A stretch of 61,232 nucleotides of DNA from Klebsormidium nitens (lineage: Eukaryota > Plantae > Klebsormidiophyceae), in NCBI GenBank assembly GCA_000708835.1, contig DF237498.1:1-61232 (forward strand). Direction: 5' to 3'. Shown piece by piece: positions 40,401-61,232 of the stretch. The position numbers and the translations under genes are program-made. The stretch's first letter is position 1. Every line of letters begins with the position of its first letter. A model generated the notes under the pieces. The model saw only the letters and a list, made by a program, of their open reading frames with translations, did no database searches and was not told where the DNA came from.

Positions 40401-43400
40401 CCATACCTAGATCGGGGTAGAGGGTTTCCGGGTCCGAGTGCCCGAGCAGAATATCTGTGATCCCCGTCATCTGGAAGGCCATCAGGTGGTTGAAGTAGTA
40501 CGGAACGAAGAGGGCGACCGTATCGGACGGGTCGCACAGCGCCAGCACGACGTTCACAAACGCCTGCGAAAAGACCGTTGGAAATCACTTCCTTTTGCGA
40601 TTGAGCACATTGCTGGAACTGTGCAGAATGTGTGTGCTTGGCAGATGTACAAGGTGCGCATCAGACCAGCGGCCCCGATATTCCAGCTTCAATGAGACGC
40701 CAGCACGACTTTCACAAACAAAAAGGAAAGGATGCTCTTTACTCCCTTCTCCGGACAAGCGTATTGTGGGTTGTTAGTAGGATGAGTGTGCACGTTTTCA
40801 GAAGCATGGCGTCCATTACGTCAGCCCCAAAGCGGCACTTCCACTGAGCTTGAGTCATTAAGCGGACAACTGACAACTAGGGCTTCGGAGGAAGCTTAGC
40901 ACTGGATGCTTAATGATGGCTAAGCAAAGCGACGAGAAAGCTCCGCTACTTAGAATCGTGTTTGCCTGACGTGTCCAAAAAGGCCGCATGTTACTGTAAA
41001 CTGTCTCAAGTGACCAATCGAAGAACATATCGAGCACAAGACTCGGAGCTACAAAACCGCACTTCAGTTGGAAAGGTTAGGTGAAAGCAGCTCAGCTTGT
41101 AGCGACAGTGATGCAATTTTCGTGACTAAAAAGCTGAGTCCACGGAGTTTGGCCGATATGCATGCAGATTGTTCGCCAGCAAGTCGTTGTCTGCTGATGT
41201 TTTAACAATCCATTGGAGTGCACAAGTACCAGATGGTTGAAAGGCAAGCTCACCTGGTTTGCACCCGCTGTTACCATGACCTCTGAGTTATGCAGACCGT
41301 TCTCCTTTCGAAGCTGCGAAGTGGATACATTGGCTCAGAGTCAGCTTTCACGCCATCAGTTGAATCCATGTTGGCCTTTGCGAAGAGACCAAGAGGCTCG
41401 TGTAGATTGGACGACCTTTTTTTAGAATATATCTGGAAGTCAGCCTCAACCCTGACTTTCGGAGGCAGGATCGGATACTGTCAGTAATGTTGAGTCGGAA
41501 GAGGCCCTGTAGACATTAGACACACTGTTCTCTTCGTCTTCCAACTCCATAATCGAGTTGAACTCTGTCACATGATTCAAGTTGGAACTGACTCGACGGA
41601 ATCCGCAACTGAATGCGCGTCTATAACAGCTTTATTCTGCAGTATATCGATTGACTCAGAGCAGGAACGGATGGTGTTGAATACGTCAGAGCGCATTCAG
41701 TAGAGGAAAAGTGGGCAAAGTGCGTGGGCTACGGGCAACTGCTTCAAACGACTCTTTCTGCACCTTCAGATCAACATCTGAACAAGCGCCCGTAGACGAT
41801 CACATAGACAAGCTAAAGGAGGTGAATTTTGCTACCCTGCTTATCTGGGAGTCCAGACTCCTGCACGCGGTCTCTTCTTGACGACGAGACGTTCGATCTT
41901 TCAACGTCTTTGAGTAACGGCTGTCGTTTTGCATGATAGCATCTGCTCAAGGTTACCTTCTCTCGAAGGGCCTCTCTAAGCTCCGGTAGTCCATCGTCGG
42001 CGCCATAGCCGCTTGTCCGCGCTTCGAAGACCAGCTCCTTGGCCTTTTCAAGAGCACTGCAAACAGAGAACATAGAGGTCACAGCTTGCCTAAGATCATC
42101 CTGAAAGAACTTCCAACCTTTTTGCGCTGCACAAGGCGTCCTGTTAAAGTGAGCGTGCTTCGATGTGTTTGTCTCTACATCTCCAAATGCCTTCTCGACA
42201 AAAATAAATGTCATCACAGAGACACTTGAATGAGGATAGAGAGCTTGTATCATGACCGGTCAAAGAGTGGCATGCTGGTCCAGAATGTCCATCTAGCAAG
42301 CATGCTTCCTTCTTTTCCATCTCAAATGTGCTTTTTCCCCTAAGTAAGTGTACTGCTTTCCTCTTTCTCCATCTTTAACATATGCTTTCAGCAAGAGCAA
42401 GTGTCAATCAGGAACCAGAAATCCTTTTTGTGGGTGAGGTTTCCTTGGTACAGAGGTCACTACTGGCAGTGGTCACATGAGATCTGATCCGAATTTCATG
42501 CCTAGATATAAACTTTCCATGTTCCTACTTCTCAGTTTCATTTGCGCCAAACAGAAGAGAGCTTGCCTTGCTGGGGGTTGCCAGTGCACAATCCCTTGCG
42601 CCAGTGACATGACGTCGGAACTGCCCCGGAGCATCTCTTGCATCTGACAGAATAGAAGGCCGCTATTTGCTTGGCTCATCAAGGAGTGGAAAGAGCTTCC
42701 TGTGTCAAAAATTTGCTATAGATTGCGTATGATTAATGAAAGAACCTAGAAGACTTTGACTTTGATAGCTGCTTTAGCATCAAGCGCATTGATGCCTGAG
42801 AAGTGGATCAGGCCCATGCAGGAAGATTTATTTTGGGACTTATCTATGGTGCTACAGCATGTAACTTACAGGGTTCAGGGAGAGTGTCCACTCCTTGAAA
42901 GATGGCTTGAAACCGGGAGGTGTTACACCTCCTATTTCAAAGCCAGGTTCTAGATAGTCTTTTCTTGGGTAGTGGCAGATAAGTAGAGTGTCTTTTGTGC
43001 ACTTTCACAGTGTCATAAGCATTCCAGCACTCCAAAACAGTTTCTGTTGACGCGCCAGCGTTTCCCTGCAAACACGCACGCCGCGACCAACCGGGTCCTG
43101 CTTGATGGTCACAATCCCCAATGCTATACCAATCCTAGTTCCTCTTTGCCCCTGGCCAACACTATCACCAACTCAATTCACCCTTTTAAGAAACAATAAC
43201 GACGCACTCTTTTGAAATCAGGAATAAAGTGCTTCATACCTGGACAATGCAGGGATCGTCAGTGGCCTGTATTCGTCTCGACACGACCGGCTGCGAAACA
43301 TCTCTTTCTTGCATCCCACTCTTATCCGTTCCTCCCATCTCTTGTACTGTAACCCCGCTAGAATGAAGAGCTCGAGAGATTTGTAAGTCTCTCCTATGAA

Positions 43401-43536
43401 AGAGCGGTTTGTTGCCGCCAAGCGACACAGGTATCGTCAGTGAGAGACTGTGAAGGACAGCACTGGCAGACTCAGGGCGTCTGAAGTTGAGCTTGGCGAA
43501 GGCTCGAGTGCCGGACAATGCTGCTTGGGCGCACAT
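37415..43536 (-). CDS. ISS1: Aromatic aminotransferase ISS1/VAS1-like (PLP-dependent class I/II)
   Basis: Phase-consistent exons 43536-43240, 42643-42567 (GC donor), 42056-41957, 41313-41254, 40563-40407, 39908-39799, 39044-38986, 38307-38199, 37873-37415. Motifs SLAQGIVHWQPP, YGADDGLPELR, VMVTAGANQAF, PYYFNH.MAFQMTG, PNNPTG, LDNTYEYF, SFSKAYGMMGWRVGY (PLP lysine), GAIYLF, PGYVRVAF, matching Arabidopsis At1g80360 as recalled. Confidence 0.9.
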
Positions 43537-45135
43537 ACCTAGGTAGACCCTGGTCAGGTCAACTAACGACGCTCATAAACATTGGACATCCAGAAAAGGT
43601 GGTGCGGATCTTCTCTTTCTCATAAGCCCATCAAAGGGATGGGGCGGATGCAACAATGCTGCGAGCTTGAAAAGGTGGTGCCACGATTGTTCATCATGAT
43701 CATGCTGCATCAGATGCATCTAGATGATAGAGCTCAGGAGTCAGCTGCACAGCGGTTCTGGCATCTGCATGGCGCGTCTCTGCTCGCGCTTGCTGCTGGC
43801 GTTTTGGCAAACCCTCGATGGATCGAAACCCTGTACAATTGTGCGATATCGAGTTGGCGCGGCCTTACATTTCCACCCAACTCCCCCGGGCACTGGGCCA
43901 CTGCAGCATACGCGATGACCATAAGGACTCGAGTGGACCATAAGGTCTCGAGCCCGACCCTTACCGCGCAGTGGCAGACCATTCCCAACTTGACTGCCGA
44001 CTGGATTGCAGCCTAGTTGCCAGCTTGCCTAGCAATGCATCAGGGAAACCGGCCATCCCTGTCAAGAAGAGCTGTAGGTGCTGAGCTGGCAATGGCGGAC
44101 CTTGGCGGCTCATTGGCACTCCTTGGAGGCTCCCTGACGGGCGAAATGTCTCCCGTCTGGCCAAGCATCCACGTCAGCTTGAGATGCTTCTACAGACATC
44201 TGAAGAGGTTTCCAGGGGCATCTTCGAGCAAGACGGCAGGCATTTGGCGCTCCTTGCATGCACGCAAAGTGGCATGGCTGCCTTCTAGGTTCGCAAGGCT
44301 GCAGAGCAGTTTGCAACAGGGTCGGAAGAAGCGGATTTTTGAGAAAAGGAGGCAGGCCAGCGGAGAGCAGGGAATCCGCAGGGACCAGGTGAGTCCTCTT
44401 GACTTTCTCGTGCGCGTGTTGTATCCACGCCGCTGGGGAGGTGAATTGAATGTTCTCGAGCTCAAAGAAGCATCTGCTGTAGGGATGCTTTCGAGACTAT
44501 GGGGGCCCTTTAATTAGGAGCCTGCTTGCAGGCTGATTTTCGGGCCACTTAGGGGGCTGATTTTGGTTCGTTGAGCTAACAGGCGCTTGCTGTGTAGCTC
44601 AGATTTGCGTCTGCTGGGGTTCTGATTGCTTGCTTTGATTGCAGACATGCTTTCTTGGCTGAAGTCTGGGGGATGGAAAGCACGGGAATCGTGATGAAAT
44701 TGGGTTCAGTGTGAGTGTATGCTGGGCCTGAGGCCTCAGTGGGATACTTTAGTTGAGGGCTTTGGAACTGTGGTGACATGCTGGCAGATTCAAAGTTTGT
44801 GTGCGGGGCCAACGTGTACAGTCTGCTCTATTGCATGCATGCAACGAAAGAAGAGAGGTTCAGCTCTTGGCTGGCGCATCATCAAGGCTTACTTGCTTCA
44901 ACTTCAAGAATCTCTATTGTGTCAGCTTGATACCATAGCCAAGTGAGGAAATCAGCTGCAGTCTGGTCTTTTCTGTCTTGCAGGTTGCACTTCAACGCAT
45001 TGTGTGCTGTACTCAGTGGAGTGAAAGGACATGGCGCAAAAGACAAACCTTGAGCAGGTGTGACCCCACTTCCCTGCTTATTAGTAGTAGGCAACAATTG
45101 CTACCCTGTGGCAAACCTGCCCTTCACATCTAGTG

Positions 45136-45211
45136 GTGGACCACACCTTGTCAAATACTATTAGGACACTCCCTCTTTGCCTCTTCGAGCCATTTGCAAG
45201 GTGTGGTCCAC
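45136..45211. repeat. 72-bp palindrome family, copy 1
   Basis: GTGGACCACACCTTG-N46-CAAGGTGTGGTCCAC. Confidence 0.9.
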
Positions 45212-45904
45212 AAGTCAGGCCGGCCATGCCTTGGTTTTAATGAGAGGCTGCAGGTTGTGTGGCCTTTCCTAAAGTCACTTCGATGCATCCTAGGTCAGAC
45301 CTCATGATTGATGCATAAAGAACCAGTGCTCCTTGAAAGCACTTTGGCCACCATGCTTCTTAAAGTTTGCCCGTGACACTTCACTAGTTTTTCTGCAGCG
45401 TCCACTGCCCAAACTGGGAGCAGCCCCAGGCGTCCAGATTCAGCCGTCCTAAGCGCCTTCTCATGCGCATGGGAAGCAAGCCAGGAAAGCAGCTTCTCGC
45501 CCTCGGAGGTGCGCAGGTTCGTGAGGGCGTCGCTGACAGGCTCGCCAGAAGTATCAAAGAGGGGTCACCGCGTCTTCCGCAAGTATGCAGGCAGCGTCTG
45601 TCAGCGCGCTCGCCAGGAGCTGGGGGCTGCAGGCCTTCTGTGGACAGAAGCAGCCTGGGAGAGCAGCCTGGCGGCGGCCATGACTGGGCTCGAGTCGCTG
45701 GCAACTTCCATGGAAGTCGGGTTGCTGGACGGTTTCAACTCCCTTTTGTGTTCAGTCAAGAGCGCTCACATGGAGGGGCTCAAGCACCCCGCAAGCGGTC
45801 CGGGGAGAGCGGAGCGCGGCGCCTGTCATGTGCAAGAAGGAGGTGGGGGCAAGGCTGCTGCCGAGCATCAGACAGCTGGGGCCTCTGGGACTGGGGAGGA
45901 GCGG

Positions 45905-46140
45905 CGCCCAATCTGCTGTCCAGTCAAGGCTCCGGGGGGAAGGTCGGTTCAGCTTCAGATGCCCCCGGCCGCTAATGTTGGAGCCTTGAAGGGCGCAATT
46001 GCGGAGCGCATCGCCATCCCTTCGTCTGAGCAGAAGCTGGTGGCGCGAGGCAAGCAGCTGCGCAACGCAAGCCGGCTGGAGCAGCTGTGCAGCGGGGAGG
46101 CGCTTGATGTTGCGCTGAACCTCGCGCTTGCTGGAGGCGG
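45905..46140 (+). CDS. Ubiquitin-like domain within the primase-helicase gene
   Basis: VKAPGGRSVQLQMPPAANVGALKGAIAERIAIPSSEQKLVARGKQL..LNLALAGG parallels ubiquitin VKTLTGKTITLEV..VKAKI....IPPDQQRLIFAGKQL..LRLRGG. Confidence 0.75.
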
Positions 46141-46704
46141 GGAGGACGAGAGAGAAGCCGATGAGCGCACAACCAAGGTAAGTGCGCACACCGCTGGTGG
46201 TGTGCATATCCAATAGGATCTTTGAGTGGCCCGCTCTTGCCCTTAGGCCTCTGCCGACCTTTCCCGCACTGGCACTGTGGCTCGTCCTTCTCAGTCCACT
46301 ACCCGGTACTTGATTCAATTGCACGATTCGTCAGCACGTGCAAGATAGCAAGCGGGCCAAAACGAAACCTGCAAGAACATGGTCGAGGAGCTTGCTGGTC
46401 CGCCTGCCATTCAACCATCAAAGTCAGGCCATGCCACACGAAATGCGAACATTGATGTGAGAATTGGACCTGCAGGTGCAGGCGCCCTCAAACAACGCAC
46501 GCGGCCTCTTCAACCCCAGCGATTTCAGCAACTTCCAGCTCAGTCTGAGAGAGGAGCGCAGGCAGCTAGCAGCCGCGCAAGAGCAAAGAGCTGCCAGCAA
46601 CAACTCTCAGGTCAGCAAGTTGAGAGAACTGAGTACCTTCTGACACTTGGACACATGCACGGTCAAGTCCGTCTAGGCAGTGCCCACCAGTTGCCGCCCT
46701 CGGC

Positions 46705-46965
46705 GGACCACACCTTGCAGATGGTCCATAGGGTCAAAGAGTGACTTTCCTTAATAACCATTGACAAGGTGTGGTCCACGAAGTGCGAAACACAACCTTG
46801 CATACCATCTGGTTCTTGTTTGTTGAATTGGCTGGTTGGGCTTATGGGCTGGACCACATCCTGCATACGGCTCTTTTTAGCAAAAAGCGGAACTGTAAGA
46901 ATAACTGGCAAGGTGTGGTCCAAGACCATACCTGCTTGCTATGTCCTTTTCTGATTAGTCGGGAC
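46705..46965 (-). repeat. 72-bp palindrome family, copies 2-3 (46705-46777, 46851-46921), reverse orientation, intronic
   Basis: Same 13-bp arms. The spacer of copy 2 is the reverse complement of the consensus. Confidence 0.88.
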
Positions 46966-48320
46966 GCTCGTTAGCTGTCGGAGCCCCCACTCCCAAACTT
47001 CAAGACATCTGTGTGAAGGGCTGCTCACCTCACAAGAAGGATCCTGCTCGAGATGCAACTTTTCTGCCTTTGGCGCATGCGCAGCTCTCATGTATGCTCG
47101 TCTGAAAGGAAGGACCTTGTCGAGTTTTTTACTAACTGGATTCTTCTTTGCTTTGAGCGACTTGCTAATACATCCTGTCCCAACAGGTACCATCGGGAGC
47201 GCGCCGTCCCAATGAATCGGACGAAGAGCTCTCACAAGAGAAGGAAGGGACCAGGCGATGCAGGCCGCGCAGGATTGACGATGACTCGGATGAAGAGCGC
47301 CGCCCTCAGCACAAGCGCAAGGTTATCCTGTCCCAGTCGTCGTCAGGCTCTGACTCTGGTGAAGGGCTGGTAGGTCCGCTTCCTAAAAAGGTAAGCAACC
47401 GCGCCCAACTTGCAAGTTGGCAAGGCACGTGCCCCTCCTTGTGACCAGCCATTCGAATCCAGCCTGCTCTCATGCCGTCGACAGAGGAAGGTGTTGACTT
47501 GTGCTGACGGATGAAGGGACTCCTTTTCAGAAGGGATGGTAAACAAATTCACTTACTAGTTCAGCTTCAGCCCGACAATACCAGCGCATGCTATTGGCAC
47601 TTTCGCTGACACTTTGCTCCTTGGAGAAGGGCCTGGTCAACTCCTGTCGAACAGCACGTACTTTCTTGCAGGCAAGAGACGAACTTGAGCACCATCAGCA
47701 TTCAGCCCTCGCCAGCGAGGACGAGTCGCAGGGCTCGGAAACAGAAGGGGAGGGCGAGGACATCGAGGGGGCAGAATTGGAGAGCGCAACAGAATCCTCG
47801 GATGAGGAGACCTCGCAGGACCGCGAGATGATTGACGACGCAAGCCAGGAGGAAGAGAGCCCCGTCATTAGGGCCGGCCAACTTGCAACACTGGAATCTT
47901 CCGATTCCAAGTCTCTTTCTCAGATTCTGGGGGGGCACTTCAAGCGGCGGGCCCCAAAGAGGGCATCCATCCCGCTTCGAACAGGGCGCCGGTCCCGGGT
48001 GGTGCTTTCATCACCAGAACCCTCATCTCAAGCTGGCAGCCAAGCCTCGTGCCAAAGCCATGCCGCAAAAGACGAGGAGCTCGGGGTTGCTGACGCTGAT
48101 CAGCTGATGCCTGAAGCTGCCGACGGCAGCTCGCTGTCAGAGCCCGAGGAAGATAGCTATGGCTGGTGGGACGGCTTTGCCATGGACTCCGAGGACGACT
48201 CGCGCCTGGTGGACGACTTTGCGAAGTGCGTGATTGTGCCACGTGCGCATCCAACGGTAAGTCAAGCGCTTCATCCCGGCTTTAGAAGCATATTCAGGAA
48301 AGCAATCGTAGTCAGGTACT

Positions 48321-48600
48321 GGACCACACCTCGTCAGTGTTTCTTAGGAAAGTCACTTTTTGCCCCTGTGAACCATTGGCAAAGTGTGGTCCACCAAACA
48401 ATACGTCAGGCCGACCGGGCCAGTACGTCAGGCCGGCCATCCCAGGCATAAAGAAAGCAGGTGGCAGAGCAGATTCAGCCTTGGACCACACCTTGTTAAT
48501 GATTCTTTGGGAAACTCGGTTTCTGCCACAGAAAGCCATGTGCAAGATGTGGTCCAATCGACTGCAAGTCATCCGGCCCATCCCATCCATGATCGTTATG
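48321..48600 (+). repeat. 72-bp palindrome family, copies 4-5 (48321-48392, 48483-48555), intronic
   Basis: Arms with 1-2 mismatches. The shared flank GGCCGGCCATCCC lies between the copies. Confidence 0.88.
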
Positions 48601-49003
48601 AGTGCATCTTCAAGGCCGGATTCAAATAAGAAAGGCTTTGAAATGGGCGCATGCGGCAGGGTTTGCCATCATGCATTAGATCGAGGCTGTTAGAAAAAGC
48701 TCTGTCGAAGAAGTGGATGTTGTGGCTCCGTGTTAGCACTTGAAGGATTGTTACCCGCTTCTTACATCCTGTTATGCATGTGCAGCTCGGACGGGCGTCC
48801 CTCCTCACAGCCACCCCCGAGCGGGACGATGGTGACCAGTCCATACCTTCTGCTCAGCCATCTGCGCCTGCCTCCCCGGCCGCCGGGCCCCAGGTCACTG
48901 GCTGCCTCAACAATCTGACAGACGCGCCTCAGTCTTTTAGCAGTGCGGGGCGAGGCCTGCGACTGGGCCAACCTGTTCGAGTGAGTTTTTAATCTGCTAC
49001 CAC

Positions 49004-49462
49004 CTAGCTGCCTCTTGGTGCCTTGGATCCCGGGGTTTTCACAATAACTCTATCCCCTTCGACAGTAATGGAACCTCGGTCACCTCGCCGGTCGCCTTTC
49101 CACCAAACGGTTCCGCTGAGCTGCACGTCCCATGGGGCGAAAAAGTGTGAGATGAGGTACTCCAACCAGCCAACATAAGAGTAGAATTTCTCTCCCTCGT
49201 CCCACAAAAGGGCTGTTCCGTCTGGAGAGAGCTTCCACTGGCAGTAGTGCGAGGGGAATTTCTTGCTGCGCTCCTCCCCAAAGTATGTCCGATTCTTGAG
49301 TGTGCGCTCGATTGTAACAAGGTGTTCTCCAGCGGGCACATAAGGCAAGGGCTCCTCTTGCTCGTGGTAGTGCTCATAGAGCGTCTCTAAAATGGCGCTC
49401 TCATCAGCAGTCAGGGCCCTTGACAGGACGAACCGACCCACGAAGCTTGTGGAGTAGCCCAT
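49004..49462 (-). CDS. Intronless phage/giant-virus-like hypothetical protein nested antisense in intron 48981-49733
   Basis: 152 aa: MGYSTSFVGRFVLSRALT..CQWKLSPDGTALLWDEGEKFYSYVGWLEYLISHFFAPW..LSGTVWWKGD..GDRG.ITVE. The MGY.T.F.G / W...EKFY.Y..WL.YLI pattern is one I recall from an uncharacterised phage and giant-virus family. Confidence 0.75.
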   Translation of the reverse strand: MGYSTSFVGRFVLSRALTADESAILETLYEHYHEQEEPLPYVPAGEHLVTIERTLKNRTYFGEERSKKFPSHYCQWKLSPDGTALLWDEGEKFYSYVGWLEYLISHFFAPWDVQLSGTVWWKGDRRGDRGSITVEGDRVIVKTPGSKAPRGS

Positions 49463-51594
49463 CTTCGATACCTTATTGCTGTTTGCGGCTTCCCCCTAAG
49501 CCAGTCAACGAGCAACCCCCCTCACAGACGACCTTGACTACCTGAATTCGATACTCTATTGCCCGCGAATGTTAGCCCTAAGTCAGGTCACAATCACCCT
49601 CGCCCGCTAATCGATGTGTCCAGACCACCTGGGTGCACAGCAGCTCTCCTGCTCTTTGGTCCCTCTCCCGGGTGCGGTCGTGTCTCTTCCGTAGGTTCTG
49701 CGCACTCATGCACTGTGTACAACGTTTGTGCAGGAGAGAAGCGCGGGTGCTCAGACAGGATCGTTGACCGGACAGGATGCCCCTTCCGAGGAGCTGGTCG
49801 TGGACTCTGGCGCATCTACGCGCCCACGTGCTCTGCAGGTTGGGGCTACACCGGTAAGTTTTGGGCAAAGCATTCGCTTTCTTCGCCACGGCAAGTGCTT
49901 TCACAGGGTTTGTCCCAATCTCGAAGGCCAGCTACATCCATCTTTGTGCCTTCTCGGCAGAACAAGGCATGGTCGTTCTTTCGGGATCATCTTTTGAGCT
50001 CTCAAAACCCTCCTCAAGCCAAGTCCTTGGAAGAGGCCGGCCATCCTGTAGTTTTGCTGAGTGCGCGGGCGCAACTTGTGGTCGCCTCCTCAGAACGACT
50101 TGCTTCCTTACTTAAGGCTTGCTCATTGCAAGATATGCTCCGTCAGTCGCGCACTCTATGAATGTGTGCAAGTCCTTGTCATGCAGGCCTCGTCTGCTGA
50201 ACGTCAGCTCGAAGAAGACGGCGCCATCATTGTCCACAGGGAGCAGGACGGCAAGCTGTTCACCGTCAAGAAGGCGGAGTTGGGCACCTTCTTCTTTGCA
50301 AAGCGCAAGTTCACAAGGGAGCCGGTCAATTACAAAGACCCTAAGGACGGGCCGCAGGGCTTCTGCAGACGCTACGGCGAGGTCCTCGGTCATCGGGTGG
50401 AGATTCGGCGCTTGTGCCCCTCCCGAGAATTTGGATCCTACTCCAATTGGCCCACCGCATACCCTTTTCTAGAAGGGCAGCAACACCTCGAAGAGGCAAT
50501 CAAGACTGGGTGCGTGTGCAAGCCCTATCTGGACCTAGAGAGAGATGGGGGGCTGCCAGAGGGAGTGACGCTGGAGACGGTCATCCGGGCGTTTGAGGCG
50601 GCCACCATCGACATCTTTCGGGAGGACTACGACATCGAGCTGCCTTCCGAGTCCTTCAACTTTCTGCCCTGCGACTACGGCCCTAGCGGCAAGTTTAGCC
50701 TGCACCTGGTGGTCTCGACTCACTCCCCCCAGTACGTCTACCGGTCCAACCTTGCTGCGCCTGTTGACCATCAAGGCGCCGGGCACCTCGCCAAGGAGCT
50801 CGCCCGGCGCTTGCCCCCGCGGTACGCCGAGCTTATTGACCAGTCGGTCTACACCAAGAACCGGGGGATTAGGCTCCCCTTCTGCTCAAAGCCCGCCACG
50901 CCGCGCAGCCGTCTCGTCCCCCTAGACGAGACGAAGCCGTACGCAGATGCGTGCATCACGTGGTTGGATGACCACATCCAAACCATCAAGGTGCCGGCCA
51001 GCCTGCCAGACGTAGTGGCAGCTAGACTCCCGCGCACCAGGCCCGAGCACTTTCGGTACCAGAGTGCCACGACGGCCAGCGCGTACGTGGTCCAGAGGTG
51101 CACCGAGCTGCTCCTGACTTTGCACCCGACTGCATACCGCAAGGGCTCCGTATCAGCAAACTCTCTAAATTTCAGCTGGTACGACCGGAGCGAGCCGTGC
51201 TACTCGGGGCATGTGCACGAGGGTTCACGTGACATCCTCGTCATCGCTGACCCCCAGCGCAACGCGGTCTTTGCCAAGTCCGACAGCGCGCGCCTTGAGC
51301 CGGCAACGGGCCGGTGCTGCAAGGTTCTGCCAGCGCGTTTCCTGGGCCCGTTCTACGCGGATGTCGAGACTTGGAAGGACGAGGCCGTCGAGGTGAACAT
51401 GCGGTACCTGGAGCGGGACCCGCTGGCCGCTGCGCCCATGGATCTGGAGCAGATTCGCGGCGGGTTCCGCCCGTTGACGGACAAGGTCGTTTTCAATGAT
51501 GTCTTGAACAAGTGAGTGTTGGCGCTCTGTGCGCGAGCAAGGTCGGTTGCGGAGAGGAGTGCGGTTTGCATAGCACTTTGATGAATCCAAGTGC

Positions 51595-51800
51595 GGGCCG
51601 GACCTTGTCAATGATTCTTCATGAACCATAAATTAGGCCGGCCATCCCAGCCATTCAGAAGCAAGTGGCAAAGCAGATTCGGTCTCCTGGACCACACCTT
51701 GCGAATGGTTATTAGGGAACTCACTTTTCGCCTCATAAGATCCATTCGCAACGTGTGGTCCAAAGGATCATAAACCAAACCGGCCACTTTGGCTGGATTC
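51595..51800 (+). repeat. 72-bp palindrome family, copy 6 (51689-51761) plus a half copy, in the intron between primase and helicase
   Basis: GGACCACACCTTG-N47-CAACGTGTGGTCC preceded by GGCCGGCCATCCCAGCC. Confidence 0.88.
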
Positions 51801-54179
51801 TTGCTAGAAATAGTCTTGTGTAAAGGATGTTTTGAGGCCGTGCAAACAAGCCCTTGATTCCAACCCATGCAATAGCGCTGTCTCTCCGCAGGTGGCAGGA
51901 GGGCCGTTACAAGGCGGCGCTTATCAGGAGCCCCATGGGCACCGGGAAGTCGACGGTCACCCGTGCCATCCTCGAGGAGCCCCCCCGTCCGCACACTGCC
52001 CTCATGATAACCTATCGACAGACGCAAGCCAGCGACGCAGCCGGAAGCAACCCAGACTTTGCGCATTATTGCGACCTGAAGACAACATGCGGGCGTGTGG
52101 CCGGGGACCACGTCATCAAGCCTCTTGCCGACAGAGAGCTCTACCCGCGTGTGATTTGCCAGGTCGACAGTCTGCCTTGGCTCCTTGGCGATGATGCGCG
52201 CGCTCCTGCTTTCGACCTGCTCATTCTCGATGAGATCGAGTCGATCCTTGCGCACCTCTCGGCCGACACCCTCTCGGAGAGGCATGTCGTCATCCGGCTG
52301 ATAGTCGATCTGCTTCGCCGTGCGCGCCGGGTCATCTGCCTCGATGGGCACTTAGGCCAACGGACCTTTGACTTCTTGACGCTGCACGGGATTCGCTGCG
52401 GTGCCGTGATTATCAACAAGCACGTGCCGGAGCGGCCTCTCGACTTCGAGTTCCTCGAGGGGCAAGCAGGGCTCCAGCTGTGGGAGAGCGCAATCTTTGA
52501 GGCGCTCAGTGCGGGTCAGAACGTGTTTGTGGTGAGCATGTCGTCGGACAGGGCGCGGGCTTTGGGGAGCGCTGTGGCAGAGCAGGAGCTCGTGGAGGAG
52601 AAGGAGGTCCTCATCATTACGCGCCACTCTGACGGGGAGGTGAAGCGGGGCCTCAGCGACGTGAACAGGAGCTGGAAGAAGCGGCTGGTCATCATCAGCC
52701 CGACCGTGGAGGCGGGGGTCGACTTCAACCAGCCATGGTTCCACCGGATGTTCCTGTACATCTGCAAGAAGAGCACGCACCCACGGGGGCTCGACCAGAT
52801 GAAGGGGCGGGTCCGGCAGCTGGTCGACTCTCTGGTCCTGTGCTTCGTCAGAGAGGGTATCAAGCTGCCGACAGAGGGGCCAGAGGGAAGCGCCTACAGA
52901 ACGCGCATGGGGGGCAGTGCTAGAAATGTTCCGAGGCTCGGGGTCGAGGAGACGTATCAATGGTTCCTCAACCGCGACGAGAAGGTGGGCGCCGGGCTGT
53001 TCTGCGAGGGCCCAGTCACGCGCCTGCTCGCTCACAACGAGAAGGAGCAATTCAATGGTCGGACACACTTTTACGAGGAGTTCACCGAGCTGCTCGAGAG
53101 TGATGGCCACGTTGTGAGAGGGGTGCGGGTCGTGGATCCGGCCGAGGTGGAGGCGCCCGGCGCGGGGGATCAGCCCAGGGGCAGGTTCTTGCTTGAGGAG
53201 ATGATCCGAGTCTCCGACATCACCCCCGGTCAATTTGCCGCCATTGAAGCACGGGTCAGGAGGAACGAGGACTATCCGGGGGACAGGGTGCAAGTTGGAG
53301 AAGTACCAGCTGGCACGCTTCTACCGCGTGCGCCACCTTGACGCCAACTTTCTTAGGATTTTTGGCCCCTACCCGAACCAGGCGGTTGAGTTCATGCTGC
53401 AGGTCGTCGACCCCAAGTACGACTTCAACACAGCCGAGATCGGGAGGCACCTTTACCCTAAGCAGAAGGCCACCATCGCTAGGGAGTTGCTGGAGGTGCT
53501 GGGCTTTCCGCACCCCCTCGCCCATGGGCACGTCACCGGCACCCTTGCAGAGTTGAGAGAGACGCTAGCGACCACCATCTACTTCCGTGAATACACCGAG
53601 AACGTGAAGTTGTTTCACGAGCGCGCGCGCGGGAACCAGGATGTCTTGGCGAAGCAAAAGTCAGCCACGACGGCCTTGAACCACGTCTTTTCGGAGCTCG
53701 GGCTGCAGCTCGAGGCCATGCAAAACGGCCGAGAGCCACGAACCGCAGAGGGGCGCAGGGGTTCTCGCATGTATGGGGGGTGGAAGCTGCTGCGGGCGCC
53801 AAAGGAGCGCACACGGCCGGTCGTTGGACCGGTGGGGGTCGACCTCATGGCCCAGCTCTTGAAGTTGCGCGTGGAGGATTCGGCCGTCTTGAAGTCGCGG
53901 ATCCAGGGGCCATTGAGAGAGTATGTTGACGGGGTTCCTTTTAGGTGGCCAACAATGGTGGCTCGAGATGAGATGTGTCGGATTGTAGTAGGGCAGGCTT
54001 GTGGTTCTAACGTCTGATTCTCATGCAAGTTCGACAGCGCACGTTGTCTAGATTTGGGATATTGAAGACATCAGCAACCGTTGAGTACAATGGAGATCGC
54101 TTGTATATGCTTGAGGCGCATTGATGTGTGTTGCAAAGCGGCCCGCTCGGTAATTGACGACTCCAATTTTACTAGATAG

Positions 54180-54680
54180 TAAGCCAAACCGGCCACCCTT
54201 GTGCAAACCACACCTTGTCAATATTTTTGAAGGGAATGTCACTCTCTGCTAGAAAAATCCATCTAATGAGCTACAATGGCCATCCCAGCCAATAAGAAGC
54301 ACATGGCATGCAAAGGTCTCGTCAGCCTTTCACGGACCACACCTTGACAATGATTTTTGGGAAGCTCACTCTTTCCCCCTCGGATCCATCTGCAAGGTGT
54401 GGTCCACCGCTTTGTAAGCCCGACCAACCATCCCTGCGATTAGAAAGTAGATGGGAAAGCAACTCACTCGCGTGGACCACACCTTGACAATGATTATTGA
54501 GAAGCTCACTCTTTCCCTCTCGGATCCATCTGCAAGGTGTGGTCCACCTTTGCCAGCCAGTACGGCCATCCCAGCCAATAAGAAGCACATGGCATGCAAA
54601 GGTCTCGTGAGCCCTTCATGGACCAATAGGAAGCACATGGCATGCAAAGGTCTCGTCAGCCCTTCACGGAGCTTGCGCTG
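54180..54680 (+). repeat. Tandem cluster of the palindrome family: copies 7-8 (54334-54405, 54474-54545) plus partial units
   Basis: ~140-bp period, flank GGCCATCCCAGCCAATAAGAAGCACATGGCATGCAAAGG, directly downstream of the helicase stop. Confidence 0.9.
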
Positions 54681-54810
54681 TACTGATCAAGTGTGTAGCC
54701 CTCCATAGCCCGCAAAGACCAGCACGATACATTGAATGAGCATTGAAGGATTGCTCAATCTGGCCACCCTAGAAAAACGCAAGTACATGTGGAATCGGCG
54801 ATACGACATA

Positions 54811-55180
54811 TGCCTCAGCCATGCCAACGTTATCGTGGCACGCCCACCAAAATTTTGTCCCCAAATTTGGACAGCTCGGCCACTCGAGTTCTCTGCCGTT
54901 GACCACAACATGAGCACTGCGTGCTACTGCCTCAGCCATGCTGACGTCCTCATGCCATGCCCACGGAAAAGGTGCGTCACAAGCTCGGACACCTTGGACA
55001 CTCGAGTCTCTGCCGTTGGCCACGACATGTCGTGGGCTTCTACCTCAGCCATGCTGACGTCGTCGCGGCACGCCCATTGAAAAGGTGCGTCACAAGCTTG
55101 GACACCTTGGACACTCGAGTCTCTGCCGTTGACCACTCGTGACATGCCGCGGACTTCTGCCTCACCCATGCTGACGTCAT
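54811..55180 (+). repeat. Tandem array of ~113-117-bp units (3.3 copies)
   Basis: CCTCA(G/C)CCATGC recurs near 54811, 54928, 55041 and 55158. Units contain GGACACCTTGGACACTCGAG or a variant. Confidence 0.85.
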
Positions 55181-55349
55181 CACGGTCACGTGGATACAAC
55201 AACGGAGCACTGTAAGTGAGAGAGTGGCATTCGGACGCAAGCAGTGGCACATGCCAATTATGCCGCACACTAAAACAACAAGGCAAATATGCACTTAACA
55301 GATGCATACTTAGAGACTTCGGTTTGCTACTTTTGAGATCATTCTCATC

Positions 55350-56527
55350 ATGGTAGCTTCTAGCCCGCTGCATGCCACGCCATCAGCAACGTCAGCTTCC
55401 TCGCCACTTTGGAAGAGGGACAACGGCTGCTTTGTCTGCTTCGAACAGCATGCCAATGCGTCAGAAATCTGCGGCAAGAGCTTCGCATCAAAGCAAGCCC
55501 TCGAAGGCCATCGCGGGCGCAAGGGGTGCACGCCAGCAAAGCTTCCGAGCGATCGTGCATACTCAAAGTACCATGGCTTGGAGCCCGGAGCTGCCCATGC
55601 GCTGAAGCGCCAGAGCAACACCGCAGCAGTCTCAAAATACAGGCACACCTTGGACGGGAAGCGCGCCGTCTTCCGCGCGCGGCACATATCGAAGCTTCGA
55701 AGCATGGTCATCGACGCCGTGCCTGCTCCACCAATGCCAAAGGCGCCAAATTTTGTGAGGCCGCCCATATCGTGGCTCATTGCCGACGCCCAGCTCCTCC
55801 CATTCGAAGTTCCGGAGCTCTTCGAAAGCGGCAAGACTGGCCTGAGCCACAAGACGTGGAGCCTCAAGTACCATCCTGACAAGGTCGAGGTATGCATTCA
55901 TGACTTCACATCGCTTTGAAGACCAGCCATACAAACTCTTGTGTATGTGTATCGTCAAGCGTTTTGTTTAGTGTACAGTTCTCGTCAAACAGTGTTCATT
56001 CACCGTGATTTTGACCAATGAAACACACTTCTCGAGTTGTCGTGAACATCTGTCTGGCCCACCCTCTCGAGTATGTTTTTCCATCAAATAGTGTACATAA
56101 CTTGATATTTTATTTGAATCCGTGTACACGCAATCTTATTGACTGCAGTCTTTGAGCGCAGGCAAAAGTCCTTTTATGCTTTGTTGAGCATTTCATGGGC
56201 TCTGCAACCAGTGGCCTAACCCAAGAGCAAGCAAAGGCTCTTTATGCTACCGAGCTATTCGCCCCACTGAACGACGAAAGATTCAAGCCCGGTCTCATTG
56301 CCCAAAAGTCACGTGGCATGCTATGGCGCGCCTGGATGAATGTTGAATACGCACTCGTCGACGAGTACGCAGAATATCTTCAAGAGTTTAGGGAGTACAA
56401 GGTGGAACGAGAGCGCGTAATCCAGAAGCTAGAAGGAGCACGAGCGCGCTGGATTGAGAACCACCTCGATCAGAAGTTTAGGAACTCCAGGGGGTTCAAG
56501 CAACACGTAGCACAGAATCTGAATTAG
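55350..56527 (+). CDS. Two-exon hypothetical protein with a zinc-finger-like segment and a KYHPDK (J-domain HPD-like) motif
   Basis: Exons 55350-55889 (gtatgc donor) and 56162-56527 (cag acceptor), phase 0. Motifs ICGKSFASKQALEGH and WSLKYHPDK. Confidence 0.6.
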
Positions 56528-56629
56528 CTAGTGTATTGTTGGGGCTTCGTGGCACTCGTCATGTCAGCAACTCGTGTTAGCAATTAGCAAAATTCTGCCC
56601 TTTACATAATACACTAGTTAGGTTTGCAA

Positions 56630-57145
56630 ATGGATTCGATCATCCGTTATCCACCAAAGGACCAAGCTGCAGTGTGCGAGATGGACAAGAAGGTGTATAG
56701 GTCTGTAAGGTGTGCCATCACACGATGCTACCAAGATCTAGGCGTTATGAGTACTCATCTTGACATAGGAGCCTTGGCCGGCTTGCGAGCCTTGACTCCT
56801 CCCTACAATCTCGGCCATATCATCCGAAAAGTCGTGAGGTCCTTGGTTGCAGAAGGATTCCACGCTTTCTGGGACAAGTCTGGCCTACATGGCAACTCAA
56901 TGTACATAGTCTATGTCGATTGGAGACGTGCATTGAAATGCGCCAGGAAGGCGGAACATGAGGCCCATCGCCGACCTCAAAATCCATGCGCAGATACCTT
57001 TGATGAGCGAAGGAGGGGCTCTTCAAGCCATCTTGAATGCGTGGCAGCAGAAGGTAGCACTAACGACCGAGAGACAGAGGATGTCGAAGTTCCTTTCCTT
57101 GAAATGCTAGCAAATCCATTGAAGCGGCCGCGTTTACCCACATAA
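56630..57145 (+). CDS. Hypothetical protein resembling a small conserved NCLDV family (possibly DUF5759)
   Basis: Intronless. PPYNLGHIIRKVVRSLVAEGF...IVYVDW resembles the recalled P.Y.....YI...L...GF.V.....IYISW pattern. Not searched. Confidence 0.5.
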   Translation: MDSIIRYPPKDQAAVCEMDKKVYRSVRCAITRCYQDLGVMSTHLDIGALAGLRALTPPYNLGHIIRKVVRSLVAEGFHAFWDKSGLHGNSMYIVYVDWRRALKCARKAEHEAHRRPQNPCADTFDERRRGSSSHLECVAAEGSTNDRETEDVEVPFLEMLANPLKRPRLPT

Positions 57146-57204
57146 CAGAGAAAGCATGCTCCTATTAAAGGAATGAACGGGCTTTGGAGTGTTTAATGAA
57201 AAAA

Positions 57205-57480
57205 AGATGTACGGCCATATTCACATTATCTGATCTAGTCACTTTTGTAAAAGCACAACGTTCAAGATGCCGGCCAATTTGGTCAAAATGCAAAGCCTTG
57301 CTTTAACAGCGTTCTTTGAAAGCACAACGACGTCAAACGAAAGCTACACTTGTTTATGCACAAGAGCATAATTCGAACTAAACTAACGGCCAATTTGGTC
57401 ATATTGCAAAGCCCGCATGCTCTGAATTGCTTTCTTTGAAAGCACGACGAAACGATCACAATCCGGTTAGCAAGCCGTCC
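57205..57480 (+). repeat. Tandem array with 117-bp period (2-2.5 copies)
   Basis: CGGCCAATTTGGTCA..TGCAAAGCC..TTCTTTGAAAGCAC near 57270 and 57387. Confidence 0.75.
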
Positions 57481-59010
57481 GTTGATATTCAAACACCATT
57501 TATTTGCTAATTGGTAAAGTCTCTAACATTGACTATATCCGGCAGCTTGAGATGCCGCCCTTCAACGTCCCGATTGGAAATTGGCGCTTTTGGCCAAACA
57601 ACCTCACAAAATCGTCAGAAAGCCACTAAATTGGTAATTGATCAACGTGCCAGGCTTGGGAGGCGGCCCGGGACCTGCCGTGGCAACAGCAAGGGCAGGC
57701 ACATCCAACACACGGCGAGCTCAATCCAAGATCCGGTCGCGAGGCGGCATGCCGGCTACCGCTCAAGCGGCTCTTCTTTCGACACCGACGGTGACGCTTT
57801 CTAAGTCGATGGCAGCAGACAAGAGCGGCAAGCGTTAGAAGATGTGCAGCTAACCAAAAGGAGAACACTTGTGCTCTCAGCATAAGACCTTCAAAGCGTG
57901 TGATGGAGGCCTTTTAAATGATTTTGCCGGCAATGTTGCAGCTAATCTAGGATAATAAGCTGATAATCAGGTAGCTTTGATCAGCCAACCATATGAAATA
58001 AGATGCATTCTTGTCTTAGTTAGGATTCACATACATTCCCGTTTTTGCAGCACCCGCTGCAAAACGATGTACTCCAGGGTAATTGGGACTTTCGGACCAT
58101 GCAGTGCTCACCCGCATGGTAAGGCGATAAGGCCTTAAGAGCTTGAGTATAAGCTTCGGATTGACGCCGACATCTTGGTGATCTTCCCTTGCCCATCATA
58201 CATATCGTTAATGATGGCCTTAGAAATGGGGTGCCAGAGCTTATCCATCTTACAGTCATGCAGATAGAAAATGCGCTGATCAAAACATACAAAATATAGT
58301 AACTTGCAATGGGAAAGGCCTCAGTCTCAAAGCATATGATTGATCAGTCGCAAATCGCCGATGAATCGAAACCTGTGGTATTTTGCGTATGAGTGTGTGT
58401 CATTTGATGATATTTAGCCACGATAGGTCTGCTGAATGCCTTCATTGCACTTGATCATGATGCAAATGATATATGTTACAGATGAAATGGACGATCATAC
58501 GGCAGCTGAAGCAGCGCTTTGTCAGTTTGAGTTTTCTGGCAGACAGAGTAAGGACTCTACAAGGACTCAATTCAAGCGAAGGTTGTGTGTAGTTTTGTTC
58601 AAAGAAAGAACATTGCTGTGGGCTTAGGACAAGTAGCCACTGGTGTAACATATTACATGTTTGCATTTCTTTCCGAGAAGAGCACCTTTCCCACAGTCGT
58701 TGTACAACTTAACAGCTTGCATTTGTAGCTTCTGCTCCAGTGGAAAATAACTCCACAAACATTCGTAATGTGTAATTGTGTCCACATGAGCACGTTCTCA
58801 TGAGTCAGAAAGACCTTCAAGAGAAATATTGAGGCCTGATCCGGTTGCCACATTTGACGGGAAGAGCACGAACGTTGAACATAATGAGCGTTGCAGATTC
58901 AGTCATGCATGCTCCGGTCTGACAACGTTACCTCATCAGCATCATTGGGGATGTCCTTCAATTGTGTAAAGGATCACCCGCATGGTCCCCACAAGCCCTT
59001 CTGAGAAGAT

Positions 59011-61232
59011 CTACAGAAAATCAGAAAGTTGATCGATCTTAGACGACAGGGCCAGCTCGCTCTCGGCCGTTATGTTACTATGCAACTTTATCACCCAAGA
59101 CCTCTTAACACAACGGAGCCGCCTCCAAAAGGTCACCCAAACGTACTCCGAGGCTTGGACCGCTTGCCACAAAGTACGTGCTAACTGAAAGAGGATGCTA
59201 AGCAGAGACAAGCTGATCGACATGACGAAGAGGTTCTGGTCGACGTAGTATCGATTGGCCCTCGAACTGCCAAGCAGATAGACGACAGTCTGGAAGATGG
59301 CCTGTGGCACCGTACGCAACAAGAGCTCGATCAAGGAGCGCGAGTCAAACCAAAGGTCCAGACTATAAACGTTCTTTCCGACAACCGGATGGAAGCCAAG
59401 CTTGTCAAGGAAGGCAACGATGTCGAGGAAAAGGACGGCCGGGATGCCCAGGGGCCAAACGACTAGCAACACTGCCCACTGCAGGGGGTTAAGAGCGCGC
59501 CGGGGGAAAGTTTCCCCTACGTCCATCTGCGGAGGAGGCCATATCCACTTGAGCCCCAGATTCCACGCTCCGGGGAGAAGATCACCGGAGACCCAGCCCT
59601 CGGAAATGGACAGGGTCCCGATGACATAGGGGGCGATGATGCAACCTAGGAACACCCACTGTGGCCAGGCTCTCCACACATCAAGGAGGACGCGGATGTC
59701 TGTGTAGAAGTCATACCAGACGACGGCGGACCCAACGATGCCGAGAAGGTAAAGAACCATGTCAATCAACATGCTCCTCTTGCCCTGTGATCCCACCCTA
59801 CCCCACACGCTTCGACAACGAGCAAGGGCCCAAGCGGTAAAAACTTCTGCTATTAAGGAAGCACCAAAGGTCGCATACATGACGGCCACGACCGTCGGGG
59901 CCTCCGGATTGCTGCAAAGATTTCCAGTTGCGGAATGGACCAGGGATGCACCAACCCCTGTTGTATACGATTTACCACCGGGACCCAGAACAATTTTGTC
60001 GACAAAGGTCGGGTCCGTCAGGTTGTATACGCGACCATCGATGCTTAGAGAGCTGTTGAAAAGCCCGCCGTTCCTTAACTGCTCCGTTACTATCCCCTCG
60101 ACGAAAACTGAGACTCTGCCCAGGCAGATCTCCCGCTTAGTGCCACTGGACAACTCGGCTCCAGTGCCTTGTAGATCGACCACACAGCCCTCGCTGCACC
60201 AACCCCCAAACTTTATAGTCTTAAGAGCCGGGTTCAAGCCAGTCAGATTTACCACTTTGCAAACTGGAGGGGCGAATGAAAGGTCGAGAACCTCTGTGGA
60301 TTGATTAGGAAACGCTATATGGAGAACTGAGAGCTTTCTACTCTGTCCCACCCATGATGGAGGTGAGCATGGAAGGCCCATCAGATTGAGCGATTGAAAG
60401 GGTGTACCAACATAATTGCAGGCTATCCCTGTCGTCTCAAGACGCAGGTTTTGTAGAACTGACAGGTTGCCAAGGCTTGCGGGGATGGGGCCAGAAAGCT
60501 TGTTGTTGGAGAGGTCGAGCTCGGCAAGGTCGGTCAGGCTCCCGAGCTCTGGGGGTATGGAGCCGGAGAGATCGTTTGAGGAGAGGTCGAGGGTGTTTAG
60601 GTTGGTCAGGCGGCCGAGCTCGGAAGGGATGGAGCCGGATAGGTTGTTATTGTAGAATCGGAGAACTTCTAGGCTGCTCAGGCTGCCAAGCTTGTGGGGG
60701 ATGGAGCCGGAGAGGTTGTTGTTGTAAAGGTTGAAGTCAGTCAGGCTGGTCAGGCTGCCAAGTTCAGGGGGAATAGGGCCCGAGAGGTTGTTACTATAGA
60801 GATCGAGGAAAGTGATTTTTGTCAGGCTGCCGAGCTCAAGGGGGATGGGGCCGGACAGGTTGTTGGAGAAGAGGTAGAGGCTTTCTAGGCTGGTCAAGCT
60901 GCCGAGCTCGCGGGGAATTGGGCCGGACAGGCTGTTGTTGTAGAGATCGATAAAGTGGAGTTTGGTCAGGCTGCCGAGCTCGGGTGGAATGGAGCCGGAG
61001 AGGTTGTTGGAGTTCAAATAGAGGTCGGTCAGCTTGGTCAGGCTGCCGAGCTCGATGGGAATAGAGCCGGAGAGGTCATTGATGGACAGGTCCAAGTACG
61101 ACAAGTTGGTCAGGCTGCGGAGCTCTGGGGGGATTTGACCAGAGAGGCTCTTGTTCCGGAGATCGATGTGGTATTGAATGCCATTGTTTTGTCCCGAACG
61201 GGAACCATTGACAATCTCCTCTAGTGTTGTTG
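59011..61232 (-). CDS. LRR receptor-like protein with a multi-pass (XK-related-like) C-terminal membrane domain, 5' end outside the window
   Basis: The frame is open to the window edge. About 10 plant-type 24-aa LRRs (LxxLxLxxNxLSGxIPxELGxLT). The C-terminus has several hydrophobic helices with YDFYTD and ELLLRTVPQAIFQ. No kinase motifs. Confidence 0.85.
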   Translation of the reverse strand, partial: TTLEEIVNGSRSGQNNGIQYHIDLRNKSLSGQIPPELRSLTNLSYLDLSINDLSGSIPIELGSLTKLTDLYLNSNNLSGSIPPELGSLTKLHFIDLYNNSLSGPIPRELGSLTSLESLYLFSNNLSGPIPLELGSLTKITFLDLYSNNLSGPIPPELGSLTSLTDFNLYNNNLSGSIPHKLGSLSSLEVLRFYNNNLSGSIPSELGRLTNLNTLDLSSNDLSGSIPPELGSLTDLAELDLSNNKLSGPIPASLGNLSVLQNLRLETTGIACNYVGTPFQSLNLMGLPCSPPSWVGQSRKLSVLHIAFPNQSTEVLDLSFAPPVCKVVNLTGLNPALKTIKFGGWCSEGCVVDLQGTGAELSSGTKREICLGRVSVFVEGIVTEQLRNGGLFNSSLSIDGRVYNLTDPTFVDKIVLGPGGKSYTTGVGASLVHSATGNLCSNPEAPTVVAVMYATFGASLIAEVFTAWALARCRSVWGRVGSQGKRSMLIDMVLYLLGIVGSAVVWYDFYTDIRVLLDVWRAWPQWVFLGCIIAPYVIGTLSISEGWVSGDLLPGAWNLGLKWIWPPPQMDVGETFPRRALNPLQWAVLLVVWPLGIPAVLFLDIVAFLDKLGFHPVVGKNVYSLDLWFDSRSLIELLLRTVPQAIFQTVVYLLGSSRANRYYVDQNLFVMSISLSLLSILFQLARTLWQAVQASEYVWVTFWRRLRCVKRSWVIKLHSNITAESELALSSKIDQLSDFL

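What the first reader, a model, noticed from the sequence alone, without database searches (positions are those of the whole stretch)
43600..58900. Candidate self-replicating virus-like element: origin-binding primase-helicase with its own palindromic sites
Seen: a ~15-kb island between host genes encodes a primase fused to a UL9/origin-binding-type helicase and is studded with one family of inverted-box palindromes absent from the first 43.6 kb. No capsid, packaging ATPase, family B polymerase, integrase or terminal repeat is recognisable. Known: HSV UL9 binds inverted boxes flanking a spacer at oriS, and baculovirus hr palindromes are dispersed origins/enhancers. Inference: a minimal replicon (initiator-helicase-primase plus cognate origins) resident in an algal genome, either a capsid-less mobile element or a reduced, intronised giant-virus relic.
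Basis: partly seen in the sequence, partly recalled or inferred. Interest (0 to 1): 0.9.

Follow-up and report, generated by a model that had tools for sequence, protein, structure and literature searches.

The report
Capsid-less origin-binding element family in alga
The alga Klebsormidium nitens carries several scattered, intron-containing copies of a giant-virus-type DNA replication-starter gene, and this broken copy is studded with its own family of palindromes that likely are the protein's binding sites, so it may belong to a virus-derived mobile element that copies itself in the nucleus without making particles.

Summary
Observation largely confirmed. The window is a Klebsormidium nitens scaffold. 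One spliced gene (44,092-54,017) encodes a PrimPol-type primase, a UL9-like SF2 helicase and a C-terminal domain whose best structural match is the HSV-1 origin-binding domain (Z 5.8, modest). Eight 71-73-bp inverted-box palindromes and two partial ones lie only in its introns and 3' flank.

This copy is not self-replicating: a real frameshift cuts off the origin-binding domain, and its contigs show no depth excess. The element is nearer 10.5 kb than 15 kb, and the stated left edge lies in a host gene.

The genome holds at least seven annotated paralogs on seven scaffolds, many broken and some near-identical. Relatives only 52-69% identical keep the same intron, so the family multiplied as nuclear DNA. 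No capsid, integrase, terminal repeat or target duplication was found, and contig depth gives no sign of a high-copy MITE.

Best reading (45%): a decayed copy of a capsid-less, virus-derived element family whose initiator likely fires its own palindromic origins. Binding, replication and the insertion route are untested, and I could not show gene and palindromes together on another copy's contig.

The parts
44092..54017 (+). Spliced gene (annotated KFL_005490050): leader, primase, zinc finger, UL9-like helicase, C-terminal domain; 9 GT-AG introns; broken
   Evidence: contigs join across introns at 48980>49734, 49852>50186 and 51511>51892
45399..46177 (+). Exon with a family-conserved N-terminal domain and a ubiquitin-like domain ending LALAGG. 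Four paralogs have a 2A-like E-x-N-P-G motif in their leader instead
   Evidence: Pfam ubiquitin 1.2e-6; 43-50% identity to P0002 and P0065; motifs. The 2A and ubiquitin-cleavage labels are recalled
50187..51511 (+). AEP primase-polymerase (motifs DLE, SLH, D..VY..NR intact) followed by a Cys/His zinc-finger-like region
   Evidence: (PrimPol 5e-16)
51892..53290 (+). UL9-like SF2 helicase with intact Walker A (SPMGTGKS) and Walker B
53285..53341 (+). Frameshift region; the main reading frame stops at 53,341
   Evidence: this locus's own DNA contig (52799-53772) and two spliced-run contigs match the window with 0 differences and 0 gaps; ORF count
53295..54017 (+). C-terminal domain in another frame; predicted to share the fold of the HSV-1 UL9 origin-binding domain
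   Evidence: AF2 pLDDT 87; top of 48,161 chains: 9hgi_A 548-833, Z 5.8, rmsd 6.8, 180 aligned; giant-virus origin-binding proteins in BFVD
45138..45209 (+). Palindrome 1, intron 45058-45398
46705..46921 (-). Palindromes 2 and 3 (46705-46777, 46851-46921), reversed polarity, intron 46611-47186
48321..48555 (+). Palindromes 4 and 5 (48321-48392, 48483-48555), intron 48257-48785
51595..51761 (+). Partial unit and palindrome 6 (51689-51761), in the intron between primase and helicase exons
54205..54545 (+). Partial unit and palindromes 7 and 8 (54334-54405, 54474-54545), 3' flank; about 140-160-bp period with a GGCCATCCCAGCC linker motif
49004..49462 (-). Intron-nested antisense ORF of a phage-type family of unknown function; similar sequence occurs on other contigs
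   Evidence: phrog_38666 2.2e-20; Atlas 0.95 to unnamed viral clusters, recognition below threshold; 6 other contigs at 49139
43240..43828 (-). Host exon (inferred 5' end of the aminotransferase gene), head-to-head with the element gene; not part of the element
   Evidence: records 8 and 14
55314..57145 (+). Unassigned ORFs (weak C2H2 finger, an HPD motif, an unknown 175-aa frame); membership in the element not shown
   Evidence: near single-copy depth

Best explanation
This is a frameshifted, still spliced copy of a multi-copy, intron-bearing K. nitens gene family encoding a giant-virus-type primase/UL9-like helicase, and it is likely a decayed member of a capsid-less mobile element whose protein is predicted to bind the palindromes in its own introns and 3' flank as replication origins. 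Shown: domain content, splicing, frameshift, paralogs, shared intron, confinement of the palindromes to the gene within this window. Inferred mechanism: (1) the C-terminal winged-helix-like domain binds the invariant GGACCACA boxes, two inverted sites per unit and 2-3 units per cluster; (2) the SF2 helicase opens the spacer; (3) the fused PrimPol primes and host polymerases extend; (4) the over-replicated or circular DNA is reinserted by host repair, which would keep introns and need no integrase, terminal repeat or target duplication; (5) a 2A-like peptide, or here a ubiquitin-like domain, would release the replicase from its leader. This copy would be passive, mobilisable at most in trans.
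For: Domain set of an initiator. A related helicase is a cyanobacterial plasmid Rep (CyRepA1 hits P0002 at 5.6e-37, score 128, below its cut-off of 200; PMC10899382 passages). Seven annotated K. nitens paralogs on seven scaffolds; the 4 with a full helicase core form one clade (SH-aLRT 96-99, quick tree). Paralog contigs at depth 63 and 45 against 16-21 in the flanks suggest near-identical collapsed copies (depth is a rough guide). 7 of 22 close relatives (52-69% identity) end exactly at the window's exon border, and a DNA contig of another copy skips the same intron, so spread was as intron-bearing DNA. All 8 units lie in 4 of 9 introns or the 3' flank. The outer 8 bases are invariant in 16 of 16 arms while spacers are 65% alike, with no compensatory change, as expected for a protein site. 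Palindrome bins (about 100-127) and helicase bins (about 70-230) have depth of the same order. Other contigs join palindrome and linker motif in the same order (table 5c).
Against: No binding or replication data. No contig of another copy was seen with both exon and palindrome; the copy that shares the 51.5-kb intron position does not align inside that intron at 80%. The fold match is modest (Z 5.8; the tool warns that Z under 8 can be a common arrangement), Foldseek found nothing in the PDB for the domain alone, and the UL9 RVKNL motif is absent (translation). Spacers are only 52-60% A+T. No shared ends, empty site or circles were found. Three paralogs have an altered Walker A (DTAKS), and the near-identical copies may be of that kind, so they may not have amplified by their own helicase. 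In virophage fragments, dispersed palindromes occur with and without a detectable UL9-like gene.
Confidence: 0.45

Rival explanations
1. One old giant-virus or mriyavirus gene was captured, gained introns and was duplicated passively (segmental duplication or carriage by other transposons). The palindromes are an independent low-copy repeat, or a left-over viral hairpin, that spread locally in this gene.
For: K. nitens has NCLDV core genes (PMC5294986 passages). The same architecture occurs in a giant-virus MAG (L071). Many copies are broken. No ends or integrase. One paralog intron lacks an alignable palindrome.
Against: Five clusters in both orientations all fall within the 10.6-kb gene (about 1e-3 if placed at random given the first). 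There are no target duplications. The compound unit recurs on other contigs at depth like the helicase's. Boxes are conserved far above spacers.
Confidence: 0.27
2. This is a truncated piece of a larger element (PLV-, mriyavirus- or giant-transposon-like) whose complete copies elsewhere carry an integrase and perhaps capsid genes; the palindromes are its origins or terminators.
For: The closest intronless relatives lie on contigs up to 26-39 kb, near the 35-45-kb mriyavirus size, and some Yaraviridae encode AEP-UL9-like helicases (10.1101/2024.02.29.582850, section 6). Virophages with UL9-like helicases carry dispersed palindromes. A phage-type ORF sits in an intron.
Against: No such gene between the two host genes here. 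An intron conserved to 52% identity is unlike intron-poor proviruses (PMC11244446 passages). The clade was not found in IMG/VR.
Confidence: 0.18
3. A domesticated host gene family (DNA repair or site-specific DNA binding), with the palindromes as autoregulatory binding sites in its introns.
For: Spliced transcripts; old conserved intron; a Walker-A-altered subfamily keeps the C-terminal domain (P0002).
Against: This copy is frameshifted; 4 of the 6 other annotated copies look truncated or deleted (annotation errors possible); leaders are mosaic. Among the named eukaryote hits only K. nitens and an unrelated Mesostigma lineage appear.
Confidence: 0.1

Closest known systems
Mimivirus R8 / ASFV pF1055L / Yaraviridae SF2_hel AEP-UL9-like primase-helicases
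   Same: AEP plus UL9-like SF2 helicase in one chain (10.1101/2024.02.29.582850, section 6 part 1); the C-terminal domain matches giant-virus origin-binding proteins.
   Different: Here it is nuclear, spliced, multi-copy, has a long leader and lies without virion genes. It falls in a separate clade of 42 rows (SH-aLRT 99, quick tree) apart from the giant-virus and virophage rows.
HSV-1 UL9/OBP and oriS
   Same: Helicase homology, C-terminal fold match, inverted boxes around a spacer (PMC12543377 introduction).
   Different: Fused primase, different box sequence, no RVKNL, spacer not strongly A+T-rich, many sites inside introns; binding untested.
Cyanobacterial plasmid initiator CyRepA1
   Same: Related SF2 helicase used as a plasmid Rep (PMC10899382 passages).
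   Different: Score below the family cut-off; bacterial episome rather than intron-bearing chromosomal copies.
Helitrons and Replitrons (recalled)
   Same: Replicative DNA elements without terminal repeats, often intron-bearing, with hairpins.
   Different: No HUH endonuclease found; a primase-initiator instead; palindromes internal and repeated.
Baculovirus hr repeats (recalled)
   Same: Short arrays of homologous units with imperfect palindromes, dispersed in both orientations.
   Different: Not in a viral genome; no sequence relation tested.

Membership tests
R8/pF1055L-type AEP-SF2 primase-helicase (protein) | N-terminal AEP with intact catalytic motifs | tested here: met
R8/pF1055L-type AEP-SF2 primase-helicase (protein) | UL9-like SF2 helicase | tested here: met
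R8/pF1055L-type AEP-SF2 primase-helicase (protein) | C-terminal domain in the same chain | tested here: not met
   present but out of frame in this copy; in frame in P0002
UL9-oriS initiator system | Inverted boxes flanking a spacer | tested here: met
UL9-oriS initiator system | A+T-rich spacer | tested here: not met
   52-60% A+T
UL9-oriS initiator system | Origin-binding fold | tested here: inconclusive
   top hit 9hgi_A, Z 5.8, rmsd 6.8, 180 aligned; none by Foldseek for the domain alone; a full-length relative aligns over about 800 columns, E 9e-19
UL9-oriS initiator system | Sequence-specific binding and origin activity | not testable with these tools
   needs EMSA or DAP-seq and nascent-strand mapping
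Endogenous NCLDV or mriyavirus | Capsid, packaging ATPase, VLTF3 (and HUH for mriyaviruses) | tested here: not met
   no Pfam hit; small split or very divergent genes could be missed; other copies not seen
Endogenous NCLDV or mriyavirus | Gene-dense, intron-poor region | tested here: not met
   9 introns, 3 joins listed
Polinton-like virus / virophage | MCP, penton, ATPase, integrase | tested here: not met
Polinton-like virus / virophage | Terminal repeats | tested here: not met
   self-comparison of 43,000-59,100
MITE (the 72-bp unit) | Terminal inverted repeats | tested here: met
   13-bp arms
MITE (the 72-bp unit) | Target-site duplication | tested here: not met
   no consistent flanking repeat in 8 of 8; flanks are homologous between units
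MITE (the 72-bp unit) | High copy number genome-wide | tested here: inconclusive
   summed depth about 100-127 against 16-21 in the flanks suggests tens at most, but only copies 80% alike count and depth is no copy number
Helitron / Replitron | HUH endonuclease | tested here: not met
Mobile element in general | Shared ends and empty sites | tested here: inconclusive

The most novel reading that the evidence does not exclude
A so far undescribed class of eukaryotic replicative DNA element: one intron-bearing gene for a herpes-type origin-binding primase-helicase plus intronic cognate origins, with no capsid, integrase or HUH nuclease. It amplifies itself inside the nucleus by unscheduled origin firing and reinsertion, and frees its replicase with a 2A peptide or a ubiquitin fusion. 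The 12 near-identical Mesostigma copies could be a second, independent case.
Probability: 0.3. Interest if true: 0.88.

Novelty: new variant of a known kind. Interest (0 to 1): 0.64.

Why it matters
If the palindromes are bound by the encoded domain, this is a sequence-defined, herpes-like replication origin system living in the nuclear genome of a relative of land plants. It would add a way for DNA to spread without transposase or capsid. It would also give a first candidate target site for the R8/pF1055L-type proteins of giant viruses, for which I found no target site in my searches.

Tried and rejected
No whole genome was held, so co-occurrence could not be scanned directly.

The palindrome pattern in metagenome contigs gave 3 loci of an unrelated long-terminal-repeat element, and in viral contigs 38 loci; none of the 41 resembles the window or its proteins.

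The run search listed no RNA holder (kinds are guesses).

Scans for the environmental sister clade in IMG/VR and GTDB found only more distant relatives or nothing, so its genomic context is unknown.

The virophage test of whether palindromes go with UL9-like genes was inconclusive. Of 22 rows (2 are repeat contigs), families of 2-4 sites occur in carriers and in 3 fragments without a detected gene. The first classification missed L057 and L064 (corrected).

CpG depletion is not specific to the element. The annotated 82-bp intron at 45.5 kb is not removed in three spliced contigs.

Foldseek against the PDB and a VIA second look gave nothing for the C-terminal domain alone. The N-terminal domain had no Atlas hit. 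The careful tree did not finish; the quick tree was used, with 69 rows, and 11 Mesostigma near-duplicates and proteins lacking a full helicase core left out.

Earlier findings of this scan hold nothing on this genome.
Full report
Source. Protein searches name the window as a 61,232-base Klebsormidium nitens scaffold and the gene as KFL_005490050.

Palindromes. The 13-base box has 21 matches with up to 2 mismatches against 1.66 expected; 18 of 21 lie at 45,138-54,545. They form 8 full units of 71-73 bp and 2 partial ones. A profile of the units finds nothing with E<1 elsewhere in the window. Six units lie in 4 of the gene's 9 introns and two in its 3' flank. Spacers are homologous (mean 65%, against 41% for the reverse complement) and so have polarity; one cluster is reversed. 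Units recur at a 140-160-bp period with a conserved linker motif. The outer 8 bases are invariant in 16 of 16 arms, with no compensatory change. There is no target duplication, and spacers are only 52-60% A+T. So the repeat is a short array unit with a conserved box, not a classic MITE.

Protein. The middle exons encode an AEP with intact motifs, a zinc-finger-like region and an SF2 helicase with intact Walker A. A 32-sequence family profile hits HSV-1 UL9 structures at 2e-33 and human PrimPol at 5e-16. The 240-residue C-terminal domain folds confidently (pLDDT 87). Its best match among 48,161 chains is UL9 residues 548-833 (Z 5.8, rmsd 6.8, 180 aligned; next Z 4.2), the origin-binding domain according to PMC12543377 (introduction and passages). 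The score is modest and Foldseek alone missed it, but a full-length relative aligns to UL9 over about 800 columns (E 9e-19). The RVKNL motif is absent. The leader holds a family-conserved domain and a ubiquitin-like domain ending LALAGG. Four paralogs instead have E-x-N-P-G, one of them the full VESNPGP; reading these as 2A and ubiquitin cleavage signals is from memory.

State of this copy. Contigs of three runs join across three GT-AG introns, while the DNA run X1 shows none of these three joins, so the locus is spliced; the run kinds are guesses. The frame breaks near 53,290. The break is in the locus's own DNA contig and in two spliced-run contigs with no difference from the window. With all nine introns removed, the longest frame runs 45,680-53,341 (1,503 aa) and the C-terminal domain is out of frame. 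The locus's contigs have depth 9-21 against 16-21 in the flanks, a rough sign of no amplification. This copy cannot be an autonomous replicon.

Extent. A transcribed exon reaches 43,828, inferred to be the host aminotransferase's 5' end. Similarity to other copies fades after about 54.6 kb. No capsid, ATPase, polymerase, integrase or HUH family appears in 18 long ORFs or in all 82 frames of 58 aa or more in the unassigned parts. No terminal repeat was found.

Family. Seven annotated K. nitens proteins on seven scaffolds belong here, most 69-85% identical over the core and two about 33-38%. Several are truncated as annotated and three have an altered Walker A. Paralog contigs at depth 63 and 45 suggest near-identical collapsed copies. 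Of 22 close relatives tested, mostly metagenome fragments, 7 end exactly at the window's primase exon border at 52-69% identity. The intron is therefore old, and the family spread as intron-bearing DNA rather than by fresh viral insertion or retrocopying. In a quick tree the four K. nitens cores form one clade inside a 42-row clade of unnamed, apparently intronless environmental proteins, apart from the giant-virus and virophage rows; the 12 Mesostigma copies (90-100% alike) are a separate lineage. The context of the sister clade could not be fetched.

Do palindromes travel with the gene? Only indirectly tested. Summed depth over palindromes (about 100-127) is of the same order as over the helicase exon (about 70-230), and other contigs keep the palindrome-linker order. 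Against this, no listed contig from another copy carries both exon and palindrome, and one copy sharing the 51.5-kb intron position does not align within it (tables are cut). Virophages with UL9-like helicases carry dispersed inverted-box palindromes, but so do fragments without a detected gene; viral terminator hairpins (recalled) could explain these.

Mechanism. Most likely (45%): the protein binds the boxes, unwinds and primes; host polymerases over-replicate the element; host repair reinserts copies. Each of these steps is inferred. CyRepA1, a related helicase acting as a plasmid Rep, is a precedent (below cut-off; PMC10899382 passages). Rivals are passive duplication with an unrelated repeat (27%), a fragment of a larger virus-like element (18%) and domestication (10%).

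Literature. The AEP-UL9 fusion is known from mimivirus R8, ASFV pF1055L, some Yaraviridae and an oyster herpesvirus (10.1101/2024.02.29.582850, passages and section 6 part 1). NCLDV genes in K. nitens are known (PMC5294986 passages), as are many viral regions in Mesostigma (10.1101/2025.04.19.649669 passages). I also read passages of 10.64898/2026.06.19.733378 and PMC11244446. Searches listed no paper whose title or abstract describes this family or its palindromes. The library lacks most subscription papers. I did not open supplements; Figure S5 of PMC5294986 and the closed bioRxiv tables may list these scaffolds.

Verdict. A real and unusual feature: a known viral initiator type in a new, intron-bearing, multi-copy nuclear form with its own palindromic arrays. 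New variant of a known kind, interest 0.64; a 30% chance that it is a new class of replicative element.

Noticed in passing
P0002, P0004, P0005, P0065 leaders; window 45923-46140: 2A-like E-x-N-P-G motifs in four paralogs, where this copy has a ubiquitin-like domain ending LALAGG: two possible cleavage devices in the leader.
   Followed up: partly
P0002, P0003, P0004: Walker A reads DTAKS rather than GTGKS in a subfamily; P0002 keeps primase motifs and the C-terminal domain.
   Followed up: partly
P0010-P0021 (Mesostigma viride): Twelve annotated AEP-UL9-like proteins 90-100% alike, a separate lineage; their flanks were not seen.
   Followed up: partly
window 49004-49462 (-): Phage-type ORF of unknown function nested antisense in an intron, with similar sequence on several other contigs.
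   Followed up: partly
window 54811-55190 and 57271-57450: Two other local repeat families (about 117-bp period, and a pair of about 60-bp matches) unrelated to the palindromes.
   Followed up: no
window 55314-56527 (+): Probable two-exon gene with a weak C2H2 finger and a KYHPD motif recalling a J domain.
   Followed up: partly
L044-L050, L064: Virophage contigs with UL9-like helicases and dispersed intergenic inverted-box palindromes.
   Followed up: partly
L001-L003: An unrelated element with long terminal inverted repeats in A+T-rich metagenome contigs shares the inner box by chance.
   Followed up: partly
L076: A contig in a bacterial assembly looks like giant-virus DNA (zinc-finger region fused to a D5-type helicase).
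   Followed up: no
window 7128-7693, 16691-17470, 32188-33156, 34455-35418: Several tandem arrays of 120-300-bp units in host DNA, some apparently repeated exon-intron units.
   Followed up: no
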